Source of the DNA: Malacoraja senta
Lineage: Eukaryota
DNA length: 64,000 nucleotides
Assembly: GCA_038087875.1 (NCBI GenBank)
Contig: CM075988.1
Coordinates: 5,580,001-5,644,000 of the forward strand
Reading direction: 5' to 3'
How positions within the stretch are numbered: position 1 is the first letter of the stretch; each line of letters opens with the position of its first letter. The position numbers and the translations under genes are program-made. Shown here piece by piece: positions 16,501 to 19,500 of this stretch. The notes below the pieces were generated by a model. It had not been told where the DNA came from. It worked only from the letters and a program-made list of their open reading frames with translations, and ran no database searches.

Positions 16501-19500
16501 TCCCCGTTGGATTGCAACCTTGTCGTGGTCGGGGAGCTTGTGTGTCTCAGTGACCCCTAGAGCTATGCCAGCGGGAGATTCGTCTCCTGTTAGGGTCTCC
16601 CATGCTGGACAGGTCAAAGGGTATAGGCGAGACGAAGAGCGATCCACTGATCCTCCAGGTTGGAGGTTGAGCACAGGGCTAACAACCCTGTCTCGTAAAA
16701 CAAATATGTTACAGAAACAGCAACTGAAGGAATCAACACTACTGAGTGGAGGACCTTCGTTGCTGCCCTACATGCCAGGAGGCACAATAGGCAGTAAGTA
16801 AGTATTCATATCTACCGAAACAAAGTAATCCCATCCGTTGAATGAAAAGTGACATGAAATGAAGGGTGCTGATATTTCTCTTTCCCCACTATTTGTTGTT
16901 GTGATCTGGAACGCATTTCCTGCAAGGAAAGTGGAAGCAGATTCCGGAGTAACTTTGAAAAAGATTTGGGGTTGTAACAGGAAAAGGGAAAATTTGCAAG
17001 GCTTTGCAGAAAGTCAAGGGGAGTTTGGTTAATTAGAGTGGACACAAAATGCTGGAGCAACTCAGCAGGTCAGGCAGCATCTCTGGAGAGAAGGAATGGG
17101 TGACGTTTCGGGTCGAGACCCTTCTTCAGACTGAAGGAAGAGAAACTGGAGATATGGAAGGGTACAAAGAGAATGCAAGGTTTTAAAATGACAGATCAAA
17201 GCAGACGATGATCAAGGAAATTTACAATGGTTCGTTGATGGCTGAGGGGAAGGTGACAATGAGGCATACAATCAATACAATTAATCAGGAGGTCAGTGAA
17301 ACTAGTAAGAGAACTGGGGTGATGGAGGGATGGAGAGAGAGGGAAAGCAAGGGTTACTTGAAGTTAGAGATATCAAAATATTTACCGCTGGATTGAAAGT
17401 TGCCCAAGCAAAGTAGAAGCTGGTTTAGTTTAGTTTAGAGATACAGCACTGAAACAGGCTCTTCGGCCCATCGTGTCCTCACCGACCAGCATTCCCCACA
17501 CATTAACATAAGCCTACACACACTAGGGACAGTTTACACTTAAACCAAGTATACAATGTAAACCAAGTATACAAGTATAAAACTCCGTCCAGACAGTATC
17601 GGATCAAACCCGGGTTTCGAGCACTACAAGCGCTGTAAGGCAGCAACTATAGCGCTGCACCACCGTGCCCCATATGGTATGATTGCATTGGACCAGACAG
17701 TATCTTCTGCATTGTATAATCCTATGAGCCTTGGTATTTAGCACCAATCTACCAGCCAGTAAAGTAATACTGTATGCTATTCTACCTTCACTTTTTTAAT
17801 CAATTATACACACTACATCTATTGTTCCCTGTATTTGAAATAACTACACAATTATTTGCAAATGTTGTAGCATTTTTCCAAATATAAAGGTTTAAGGATA
17901 TGTAGATATAAAAAGGTCTGGAATGTTTTGCAGCTCTCCAAAGCAAACAATGTCATTTCAAAATATGATTAGATGAGGAAAAGTAAAATTGAACTGAGAC
18001 GGGGTAATATTTAAAACATGACAGCTTAGATTTGTCTGAGAATTTTAAATGCTGGCCAAGACAAGATCATGGGTTTAAGTAATTACTTGGTAGCCAGACT
18101 GCAAGAAATAACACACAAACAGGACCTAGGAAGTGGGCCAGAAGTTAATGATTTCATTGTAAGCATGTTAAGAGTGCACAGTGCTATAATTTTACAATCA
18201 CCGAGCTTGTACACAACCAGCCCAGAGAAACATAATTCAAAACTCCTTTCTGCATTTGTCCCCACCGTTGACTTGCACTTTGTTTACTTTTGCCTGAAAG
18301 GAATCAGATAATTTATTACAGCACAAAAAGGAAACATTTGGAAGTTGAGGTGCTTCCAGATTAATAAACCTCCCCAAACTCTCTTCCACTAGAAAATCAT
18401 ATAGAAAAGAATGCGTTTGAGCCTAAGCAAACAATTTTCAATCAATGATCTCAGTGAGATTCAACAATTGAAAACAGATATCTAAACTATTTCATTCACC
18501 AAATGCTTGCTATCTAGTAAATCTAACTTGGAAAGAGGAAAGCTACGTCGTTTGTTTTAATATGCTTTGGCTTGTTTTATTAGTTACTGACATTAGGTTT
18601 AAAATGAATAGTATCACTTTGTGATATTTAACAGAATAATCCTTAATTCGGGCAAAAGTCACTTAGGGAAGTGCCCCTGGGAAGTCATCAGCCCTGTCCC
18701 CCCAAACTGGGTTGATTCACCAGCTCCAGCGGTTTATGGGATCCCCAAAGAGTTGTGTTTCCTGAGCTGTGGGTTCGTGCACAGAGATCTCTTTGTCTCA
18801 CTCTCTCCCCACCTCCCCCAATCTCCATCACAATTATCATATGGTGCAGCCTTGTGGATGAAGGGCTCAAACCAAACCAAACACAAAAAACGGGATCCAG
18901 CTATTCTGAGCACCCACTGCCCTTCGTCTTCACAGCAGACGCTTCTGTCAATGCCTCTGCCTATCTTTGCCACATTAAATGAAAACTGCAGTCAAAGAAA
19001 CACATCAGTGTGTGGATATTTTGTTAGTGCAGGATGTAGATTATGAAAAAAATGAAATGTACTAGGTCATTGCAGATCAAAACCAGATATTGATATGGAA
19101 GTGACAGTGTAGCCAAAATAGTAAAATGTTGCACAAATAAACCAGAAGTCGATTAATAACTGAGAAAATGTAGATTCAAATCATGATAGAGAGTTGGAAA
19201 TTATTTAAGAACCTGAATATAAATAACATGCATCAATAAAATTGACATCTGAACCCTATGTATAGTTTATTTCGGTTTTCAGCTATAGCGTGAAAAACAA
19301 TCCCTTCGGCCCACCGGGTCCACGCTGACCAGTAATCACCGGTGCACTCATTCTATTCTAAACACTAGGGATAATTTTTGCAGCAGGCAATTAACCTACA
19401 AACCTGCATGTCTTTGGGATGTGGGAGAAAATTGGAGTTTACACATCGGAGACCTGAGATGATCATCGATTCAGAAAGTACATGCCCCACGCTACATCAA

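What the first reader, a model, noticed from the sequence alone, without database searches (positions are those of the whole stretch)
17041..17420. Dozens of minimal hammerhead-ribozyme cores carried by a Penelope-derived short element inside the FLI1 pre-mRNA
Seen: the most abundant short repeat in the window contains CTGAAGA-A-GGGTCTCGACCC-GAAAC-GTC (subfamily A) or CTGAAGA-A-GGGTTTCGGCCC-GAAAC-GTT (subfamily B). Stem II is preserved between subfamilies (GGGU-CUCG-ACCC vs GGGU-UUCG-GCCC, U-A to U-G), and the triplet stays NUH (GUC vs GUU). Intact or near-intact cores on the FLI1 sense (minus) strand occur at about 4412, 14002, 17102, 44986, 59483, 61124 and 63828, and on the plus strand at about 21978, 42365, 54445, 55414 and 63870. 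Longer copies (1715, 27961, 36195, 51185, 61070) link the motif to a GIY-YIG C-terminus ([25 protein letters not shown]). Knowledge: Penelope-like elements carry minimal type I hammerheads with a tiny palindromic stem III that cleave mainly as dimers, and an extra A after A9 is tolerated in natural hammerheads. Inference: a non-autonomous, ribozyme-bearing SINE-like family has amplified massively here. Many cores in one nascent transcript could pair through their ACGU palindromes and cleave introns co-transcriptionally. Caveat: stem I looks only ~2 bp, so monomer activity is doubtful.
Basis: partly seen in the sequence, partly recalled or inferred. Interest (0 to 1): 0.8.

Follow-up and report, generated by a model that had tools for sequence, protein, structure and literature searches.

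The report
Penelope retrotransposon ends bearing minimal hammerheads
The repeat is the cut-off end of a very abundant Penelope-type jumping gene and carries a known minimal hammerhead-ribozyme motif, but the copies inside FLI1 are likely inert passengers rather than RNA cutters.

Summary
The motif is real. The window holds 74 fragments, 42 cover the core and 11-12 are intact. One exact 34-base form occurs 7,878 times genome-wide. It is the 3' end (pseudo-LTR) of an autonomous Penelope-like retrotransposon: full pLTR-RT/GIY-YIG-pLTR units were recovered. The core matches the minimal hammerhead published in 2014, and its two innermost helix I pairs covary across unrelated families. It is not a separate SINE, because short and long copies share the same variants. 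Nothing supports intron cleavage: sense and antisense copies in eight genes are equal (119:124; intact 23:20), and the essential G12 decays like any CpG. Helix I is 2 bp, no copy class starts at the cut site, and a relative's RNA reads show no pile-up of ends. One unexplained feature stands out: short copies, some with target-site duplications, start within about 5 nt of the core and end at two fixed sites. This would fit a strong-stop-like cDNA running from an internal priming site to the transcript start. The scan noted the same kind of element before in other genomes. Verdict: new member of a known kind, low interest.

The parts
17034..17415 (-). The finding's copy: 5'-truncated Penelope-like pLTR (GIY-YIG C-terminal remnant, pyrimidine-rich 3' UTR, hammerhead core, 3' end at the first fixed site, no tail)
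17348..17415 (-). Degenerate GIY-YIG C-terminal coding remnant ending at the stop codon
17130..17134 (-). TCAGT just 5' of the core. The last two bases are the 5' strand of helix I. The motif also reads as an initiator or as a 3' splice site (both recalled, untested), and it is the 5'-end hot spot of short copies
17102..17129 (-). Minimal hammerhead core: CUGAAGA box, bulged A, 4-bp helix II (17121-17118 with 17113-17110), GAAA, loopless ACGU palindrome (17106-17103), GUC triplet; predicted cut between 17102 and 17101
   Evidence: anatomy as in PMC4209133
17100..17101 (-). 3' strand of helix I (AC); the third pair is an A-C mismatch
13933..14033 (-). Short copy, GUU triplet, intact core, flanked by a 14-nt target-site duplication; sense to FLI1
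4319..4444 (-). Short copy with tail and 10-nt target-site duplication; boxes intact but first helix I pair broken
44913..45017 (-). Short copy, intact core, 2-bp helix I; sense to FLI1
59389..59511 (-). Short copy, intact boxes, 1-bp helix I; FLI1 intron 1
61058..61411 (-). Long copy (GIY-YIG end, UTR, intact core at 61152-61125); FLI1 intron 1
21895..22075 (.). Head-to-head inverted pair centred just 5' of the two cores (fold-back type); the plus arm is intact and antisense to FLI1
42299..42458 (.). Head-to-head inverted pair; plus-arm core at 42365
54372..54571 (.). Head-to-head inverted pair; plus-arm core at 54445
55339..55542 (.). Head-to-head inverted pair; plus-arm core at 55414
63725..63956 (.). 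Head-to-head inverted pair upstream of the FLI1 start codon; minus core intact (63855), plus core lacks G12 (63870)
15271..15362 (+). Copy antisense to FLI1 lying between the sense cores 14029 and 17129; predicted to form an 87-pair duplex with the 17129 copy in the pre-mRNA
27963..28450 (-). Longest window copy (more of the GIY-YIG domain); palindrome broken by C15.2 to T
55605..55820 (-). FLI1 PNT-domain exon
59070..59270 (-). FLI1 exon 2, approximate bounds, found with recalled peptide motifs
62350..62367 (-). FLI1 first coding exon piece: ATG, 18 bases, then a GT donor

Best explanation
The repeat is the 3' end of an autonomous Penelope-like retrotransposon, inserted as 5'-truncated and often head-to-head inverted copies, and it carries the published minimal hammerhead motif, which is likely inert once the copy sits in a host intron. 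Shown: full units of about 3.84 kb run pLTR, RT plus GIY-YIG ORF, pLTR, with the core near the end of each pLTR. Copies end at two fixed sites about 62 and 98 nt past the triplet, and some short copies carry 8-17 nt target-site duplications. Inferred: the element's RT starts internally at those two sites on uncut RNA and copies through the hammerhead. It then usually stops at the core's 5' edge or in the UTR, and the cDNA either joins the target by microhomology or folds back to give inverted pairs. The motif was likely kept under selection in the master elements, where it would cut weakly, as a dimer and with help from the element's own protein. After insertion the copies decay neutrally, and in FLI1 pre-mRNA they would mostly be mutated, misfolded or paired with antisense copies.
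For: Full units: L054 has cores at 3461 and 7299 and pLTRs 94% alike; L057 is a tandem at 98.5%. The ORF has weak RVT_1 (E 2e-5) and GIY-YIG (E 8e-4) hits, both under the curated cut-offs, plus ADKG, YIDD, CNRKRCNTC and LIYC/YIGET motifs. Subfamily-A cores follow such ORFs in L021, L023, L031 and L033. Truncation gradient: 48,050, 16,367 and 3,856 candidates. 154 of 367 fragments are in head-to-head pairs. Two 3' ends appear in DNA and as loose ends at 3557 and 3592 of L054 in all four runs laid, matching the two RT start sites and tail of PMC11167929. TSDs of 8 nt or more: 20 of 89 short copies against 1 of 89 controls. Selected structure: helix I pairs 1 and 2 are formed in 47 of 49 distinct sequences each, with 15 and 20 two-sided changes; 0 of 10 non-CpG core columns vary between subfamilies against 21 of 68 others (p=0.054). 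Inert in introns: sense 119, antisense 124; intact 23:20; FLI1 37:35. G12 is A in 33 of 140 copies against 17 and 22 at two non-core CpGs. 1 of 213 non-inverted copies starts at the cut site. No pile-up of RNA ends among 9,952 reads. The active dimer fold lies about 20 kcal/mol above the best co-fold, against 13-14 for three relatives with longer helix I.
Against: No cleavage assay was run. The interval on the intact sense share is wide (0.38-0.69), so mild selection is not excluded. Sense cores 14029 and 17129 lie 3.1 kb apart, close to the element's own 3.84-kb spacing. The RNA run is poly(A)-selected, from a related organism, only about 6% read, and dominated by passively transcribed copies. 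ViennaRNA ignores the tertiary core. Non-CpG core columns mutate slightly less than other invariant columns (0.049 against 0.059, p=0.09). One gene span (160 kb on C2) was taken as one gene across an 80-kb gap without exon hits. The sample is not random.
Confidence: 0.85

Rival explanations
1. One reading: sense cores in one FLI1 transcript pair through ACGU and cut the introns during transcription.
For: Six strict cores lie sense inside the transcribed span, four with both helix I pairs. Published minimal hammerheads cut weakly as dimers (PMC4209133). The 14029-17129 spacing resembles the native unit.
Against: No strand bias. FLI1 is richer in copies than its flanks, 1.06 against 0.63 per kb. 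Neutral decay of G12. Antisense neighbours are predicted to pair at -166 and -176 kcal/mol. In the 211-nt context helix II forms with probability about 0.2 and helix I about 0. The Anolis element's hammerhead needs element protein and no RNA-seq reads end at its site (PMC11167929). 8 of 9 Xenopus dimers tested gave no product (bioRxiv 2026.07.22.740005).
Confidence: 0.06
2. The motif is already dead in the master elements of this lineage: helix I shrank to 2 bp and an alternative hairpin (helix II 5' strand paired with the four bases after the triplet) locks the site. Conservation would then reflect RT or promoter binding, not catalysis.
For: Helix I reaches 4 bp in 0 of 52 strict cores here against 57 of 126 in unrelated relatives. 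The alternative hairpin is the monomer MFE for two of three own copies, and its four pairs can form in 253-261 of 279 copies. Naiad elements thrive without hammerheads (PMC8557442).
Against: Only the two inner helix I pairs are universal across families (third pair 26 of 49). D. virilis Penelope also has a 2-bp helix I (PMC4209133). Changes in the alternative hairpin are one-sided only. The boxes, triplet rule and palindrome hold in both subfamilies.
Confidence: 0.35
3. The short form is a non-autonomous SINE- or retrozyme-like family that copies itself through its own short RNA using the element's RT.
For: 150 of 279 core copies lack upstream UTR. Their 5' ends cluster and some have their own TSDs. 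Retrozymes are proposed to derive from pLTRs (bioRxiv 2026.07.22.740005).
Against: Same variants in the same proportions as long copies. 5' ends spread over about 10 nt and grade into shorter and longer copies. Only occasional direct tandems were seen, no arrays. No A-tail.
Confidence: 0.12

Closest known systems
Minimal hammerheads (min-HHR) in pLTRs of metazoan Penelope-like elements (Cervera and De la Pena 2014, PMC4209133)
   Same: Type I, no loop 3, palindromic 15.2-16.2, one unpaired base between A9 and G10.1, G10.1-C11.1 pair, one motif per pLTR about 3-4 kb apart in full elements, mostly single truncated copies, some close pairs on opposite strands.
   Different: Helix I is 2 bp (4-5 in their S. 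mansoni families; 2 in D. virilis) and helix II is 4 bp. Copy number is far above their 4,000-9,000 in coelacanth and Xenopus: 7,878 exact matches of one 34-mer alone. Shark and skate names were not found in the two supplement files searched; a third file could not be searched.
Anolis Poseidon element PAc (Frangieh et al. 2024, PMC11167929)
   Same: Two internal RT start sites downstream of the hammerhead giving an optional 30-40 nt tail (here about 35 nt); copies span the uncut ribozyme; no RNA reads ending at the site.
   Different: Here the probable ATG lies about 135 nt 3' of the triplet rather than inside helix II, and the protein has a CX4CxxC linker of the Neptune/Nematis type. Activity here is untested.
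Neptune-type EN+ Penelope-like elements (Craig et al. 2021, PMC8557442)
   Same: RT then C-terminal GIY-YIG, cysteine linker, 5' truncation, partial tandems, inverted 5'-truncated copies, tail.
   Different: No tree against reference clades was built, so the clade is inferred from the linker only.
Non-LTR retrozymes of animals (bioRxiv 2026.07.22.740005; PMC7229834, listing only)
   Same: Non-coding, pLTR-derived, type I hammerhead.
   Different: Retrozymes are tandem arrays and under-represented in Xenopus introns. These copies are dispersed, single or inverted, not depleted in FLI1, and not a separate lineage.

Membership tests
Penelope-like element (EN+) | Single ORF with RT and C-terminal GIY-YIG | tested here: met
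   750-aa open frame L043 with RVT_1 E 2e-5 and GIY-YIG E 8e-4, both under Pfam cut-offs; motifs in order
Penelope-like element (EN+) | pLTRs from partial tandem arrangement | tested here: met
   L054 3159-3592 and 7005-7423, 94% alike; L057 tandem 98.5%
Penelope-like element (EN+) | 5' truncation, inverted 5' copies, optional 30-40 nt tail | tested here: met
   154 of 367 fragments in inverted pairs; two 3' ends 35 nt apart
Penelope-like element (EN+) | RT groups with PLE/telomerase RTs in a tree | not tested
   No reference sequences were fetched
Neptune clade | CX2-5CxxC linker between RT and EN | tested here: met
   CNRKRCNTC in L043 and L044, not matched in L021; Nematis also has such a linker
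Neptune clade | Phylogenetic placement | not tested
   No tree built
Metazoan PLE minimal hammerhead | CUGANGA and GAAA boxes, NUH triplet, bulge after A9, G10.1-C11.1 | tested here: met
   intact in 55 of 191 core-covering copies
Metazoan PLE minimal hammerhead | Loopless palindromic helix III (dimer only) | tested here: met
   ACGU at 17106-17103; invariant in alignment A1, where the search pattern fixed it for the relatives
Metazoan PLE minimal hammerhead | Helix I of 4-5 bp as in most described families | tested here: not met
   2 bp in 31 of 52 strict cores, 3 bp in 6, none longer; third pair in 11 of 129 long copies. A 2-bp helix I is described for D. virilis, so this marks a short variant rather than exclusion
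Metazoan PLE minimal hammerhead | Covariation of helices across families | tested here: met
   Inner two helix I pairs 47 of 49 each; 0 of 500 shuffles reach the score and slid controls are lower. Related rows inflate the counts, and only 6 of 69 rows are from this genome
Hammerhead ribozyme (functional) | Self-cleavage at the triplet | not testable with these tools
   Indirect signs negative:
Hammerhead ribozyme (Rfam models) | Match to an Rfam hammerhead model | tested here: not met
   None among 65 matches at E<=10
SINE | Own lineage with diagnostic variants and a fixed 5' head | tested here: not met
   Shared variants; 5' ends clustered but spread
Non-LTR retrozyme | Tandem arrays with a hammerhead in each unit | tested here: inconclusive
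   Dispersed in the 1.25 Mb examined, only occasional direct tandems; arrays elsewhere in the genome were not sought

The most novel reading that the evidence does not exclude
The short 95- and 135-nt copies are the fossil strong-stop cDNA of a Penelope-like element. Transcription would start at an initiator (TCA+1GT) three to four bases before the hammerhead core, so the RNA begins with a ribozyme whose helix I cannot exceed 3 bp. RT primes internally 62 or 98 nt past the triplet and runs off the 5' end, then either jumps to the 3' pLTR to copy the body or inserts or folds back as it is. Hundreds of thousands of such copies would map the start site and the first step of Penelope reverse transcription at base resolution.
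Probability: 0.3. Interest if true: 0.6.

Novelty: new member of a known kind. Interest (0 to 1): 0.28.

Why it matters
As filed, it is another Penelope family with the 2014 minimal hammerhead, notable mainly for scale: about 0.57 fragments per kb in 649 kb, roughly a million if that non-random sample were typical. The equal strand counts are a useful negative. A vertebrate genome tolerates thousands of perfect cores in sense orientation, which fits these motifs needing the element's own context. If the strong-stop reading holds, it would give a direct handle on an open question: how Penelope elements, whose RT primes internally near the RNA 5' end, copy their whole body and form pLTRs and inverted ends.

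Tried and rejected
Rfam scan: no hammerhead; the top hits are microsatellite artefacts. A DNA search of the own genome with the short copy returned nothing because common words are skipped, so it is uninformative. A query with stop codons failed and a Pfam family was not in the library. Pfam gave 0 hits on two short ORF pieces. A fossil signature of cleavage (5' ends at position 1.1) was not found. A 5-bp helix I variant, suggested by a recalled ray-type motif, has only 3 exact matches in the genome and none of them has a helix I over 2 bp. Splice-acceptor idea (pyrimidine tract plus CAG just before the core, as in D. virilis): no joint supported by the raw RNA run among the 15 shown of 256. 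TSDs show that the DNA upstream of those 20 short copies is target DNA, not a captured exon. Capture of host exons is rejected for those copies; an intron in the master RNA stays open. An extended helix I beyond a 2x2 loop pairs at positions 5 and 6 in 88 and 69 of 129 long copies, but covariation was not tested, so it is not counted. A sharp step at base -4 is significant only with pattern-selected copies included (25 of 44 against 93 of 106); among unselected short copies it is no sharper than at -3 (p=0.63). An initiator-like CA[CGT]Y within 10 nt of the core occurs in 9 of 20 relative clusters against 5, 1 and 1 in farther windows; the motif was chosen after looking and the clusters are not independent, so this is weak. 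Sequencing-run search: no RNA holder listed. X1 and X5 are guessed RNA contigs and were not used as expression evidence. Paper searches returned shark biology; searches found no paper on this family or on a strong-stop reading of PLE short copies, within a library that lacks most subscription papers. Lunse et al. (PMC5785218) was not held. The host species was not determined.
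Full report
Observation. A profile built from natural copies finds 74 fragments in the window; 42 cover the core and 12 keep both boxes, the triplet, at least 3 helix II pairs and the palindrome. A stricter pattern finds 11 (7 minus, 4 plus) and none in 60 Markov-shuffled windows. One exact 34-base window stretch occurs 3,901 plus 3,977 times in the 1.94-Gb genome, and the reversed control never. In 648.6 kb (264 kb around the window and seven other gene spans) there are 367 fragments. Rfam reports no hammerhead.

Host gene. A PNT exon at 55605-55820 on the minus strand is closer to FLI1 (124 bits) than ERG (112), and the ETS exon lies about 5 kb left of the window. Recalled peptide motifs place exon 2 near 59270 and the start codon at 62367, followed after 18 bases by a GT donor. 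The 63828 and 63870 copies therefore lie upstream of the coding start. Six strict cores are sense inside the transcribed span, four with both helix I pairs.

Parent element. Protein searches of the own genome give 48,050 first-look candidates for the GIY-YIG end, 16,367 for the RT thumb and 3,856 for the N-terminus, a 5' truncation gradient. I fetched 40 loci chosen mostly for long open frames. L054 holds pLTR, body, pLTR with cores at 3461 and 7299, and L057 a tandem at 98.5%. L049 and L051 are 98.7-99.5% identical to L054 including flank, so they are duplicates, not independent insertions. L043 has a 750-residue frame with weak RVT_1 and GIY-YIG hits and a CNRKRCNTC linker. These carry the GUU-type core; GUC-type cores follow similar ORFs in L021, L023, L031 and L033. 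154 of 367 fragments are head-to-head pairs. Copies end about 62 or 98 nt past the triplet, and reads and contigs of related organisms break off at the same two places. PMC8557442 (passages) lists 5' truncation, inverted copies and a 30-40 nt tail as PLE hallmarks. PMC11167929 (parts 1-2 of 4) shows that the tail lies between two internal RT start sites. PMC3846280 (passages) reads the inverted junctions as self-priming.

The ribozyme motif. The anatomy is that of the minimal hammerhead of PMC4209133 (parts 1-2 of 4 and two supplement files): no loop 3, palindrome at 15.2-16.2, one base between A9 and G10.1. There a monomer was inactive and dimers cut weakly. 19 of them have GIY-YIG or RT similarity to L043, and none matched this family's 3' sequence, so they are distant families. 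I aligned 63 of the 121 with 6 own copies. Among 49 distinct rows the two inner helix I pairs, which the pattern did not fix, form in 47 each, with 15 and 20 two-sided changes; the third forms in 26. The motif as a class is therefore a selected structure. In this genome helix I is 2 bp in 31 of 52 strict cores, 3 bp in 6 and never longer, against 4 or more in 57 of 126 relative matches. No non-CpG core column varies between subfamilies (0 of 10 against 21 of 68, p=0.054), which hints at selection in master elements.

Does it act in introns? In eight gene spans oriented by ETS, PNT or spectrin exons, sense and antisense fragments number 119 and 124 (sense share 0.43-0.55), intact cores 23 and 20 (0.38-0.69), and in FLI1 37 and 35. 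Among 140 full-span copies G12 is A in 33, no rarer than at two non-core CpGs (17, 22). Other core columns mutate at 0.049 against 0.059 for invariant non-core columns (p=0.09). Copies span the cut site, so their templates were uncut there. Only 1 of 213 non-inverted copies and 1 of 77 longer inverted arms start at it, and after overlap correction no shorter arm starts at it, though 5 start one or two bases before. In a poly(A) RNA run of a related organism, 9,952 reads cover the core about equally on both strands (depth 2,584 against 2,399) with no place where many molecules begin or end; this test is weak because scattered copies dominate. The active dimer fold is about 20 kcal/mol above the best co-fold for the 17129 copy, against 13-14 for three relatives, while antisense neighbours at 15271 and 21978 would pair with it at -166 and -176 kcal/mol. 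In PMC11167929 the hammerhead needed element protein and was dispensable for insertion in vitro. In bioRxiv 2026.07.22.740005 (parts 1-3 of 5) 8 of 9 Xenopus dimers did not cut. Against my reading: the interval for intact cores is wide, the 14029-17129 spacing resembles the native unit, and no assay was run.

Is the short form a SINE? In 1.25 Mb (the sample above plus 60 stretches centred on exact matches) 279 core copies split into 129 with upstream UTR, 89 solo and 61 inverted. The split uses score thresholds and errs at the margin; the 17129 copy was called solo although it has the UTR. The three commonest 3' variants occur 57:30:10 in long and 57:30:15 in short copies (p=0.65), so short copies look like direct products of the same masters.

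The unexplained feature. Short copies do not start at random. Of 124 not chosen by pattern, 93 share 3 or fewer bases with the element upstream of C3, against 26 of 129 long copies. The longer arm of 49 of 77 inverted pairs starts at or before C3. 20 of 89 solos have a target-site duplication of 8-17 nt (control 1 of 89), and 15 of these end within -5 to +3 of C3. Long copies of every subfamily have a pyrimidine tract and mostly YCAGT at this spot. Three readings fit: an RT pause, a splice acceptor as in D. virilis (intron end at helix I; intron and initiator in PMC2377424, passages), or a transcript start at an initiator (consensus recalled). The third, combined with internal priming, would make the short copies strong-stop-like cDNAs. 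Support is indirect, the step at -4 is not sharp in unselected copies, and searches found no paper that makes or excludes this reading.

Earlier notes and verdict. Three earlier scan notes from other genomes reached the same family assignment; none exists for this genome. My reading was recorded before I saw them. PMC6765202 (passages) summarises the dimer evidence; Lunse et al. was not held and is known to me only through that review. Observation partly confirmed; Penelope origin and motif right; SINE status and intron cleavage unsupported. New member of a known kind, interest 0.28.

Noticed in passing
window 46321-48720 +: 799-residue open frame that looks like a LINE-1-type reverse transcriptase (family recalled, not scanned), inside a FLI1 intron and antisense to the gene.
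   Followed up: no
window 17102-17121 - and most copies: An alternative hairpin pairs the helix II 5' strand with the four bases after the triplet; it can form in 253-261 of 279 copies per pair and is the monomer MFE of two of three own copies. It may be an off-state; the changes are one-sided only.
   Followed up: partly
window 13933-22075: Alternating sense and antisense copies within 2-5 kb are predicted to form 87-92-pair duplexes in FLI1 pre-mRNA; possible editing or back-splicing substrates, as with inverted Alu pairs (recalled).
   Followed up: partly
window 17450-17670 -: A different abundant short repeat with a tRNA-like head (resemblance recalled) lies directly upstream of the finding's copy; ARAGORN finds no tRNA in the window.
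   Followed up: no
window 53000-53700: Long (CA)n/(TG)n inverted microsatellite that produces spurious Rfam microRNA hits below gathering scores.
   Followed up: no
window 37394-37849 -: Fragment of another reverse transcriptase, CR1/L2-like by recall.
   Followed up: no
window 51185-51712 -: A GUU-type short copy is inserted inside the UTR of a longer copy of another subfamily, i.e. nested insertion.
   Followed up: no
L049, L051, L054: Three unplaced contigs share a full element and its flank at 98.7-99.5% identity: a segmental duplication or assembly redundancy.
   Followed up: partly
L052:3200-9400: A related element in tandem at about 3.0 kb spacing, with a long internal array of about 27-nt repeats and no high-scoring full core.
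   Followed up: no
L039:3834-4850 +: 339-residue uninterrupted open frame resembling a Tc1-type transposase (recalled) next to a Penelope fragment.
   Followed up: no
L104-L224: Metagenome contigs hold about 20 clusters of the same minimal core with different helix I sequences, some beside GIY-YIG or RT fragments: probably animal host DNA.
   Followed up: partly
L054:3160-3360: In the related organism's RNA run the GIY-YIG part shows about 2:1 strand skew while the core shows none; longer copies may be biased in orientation within transcripts.
   Followed up: no
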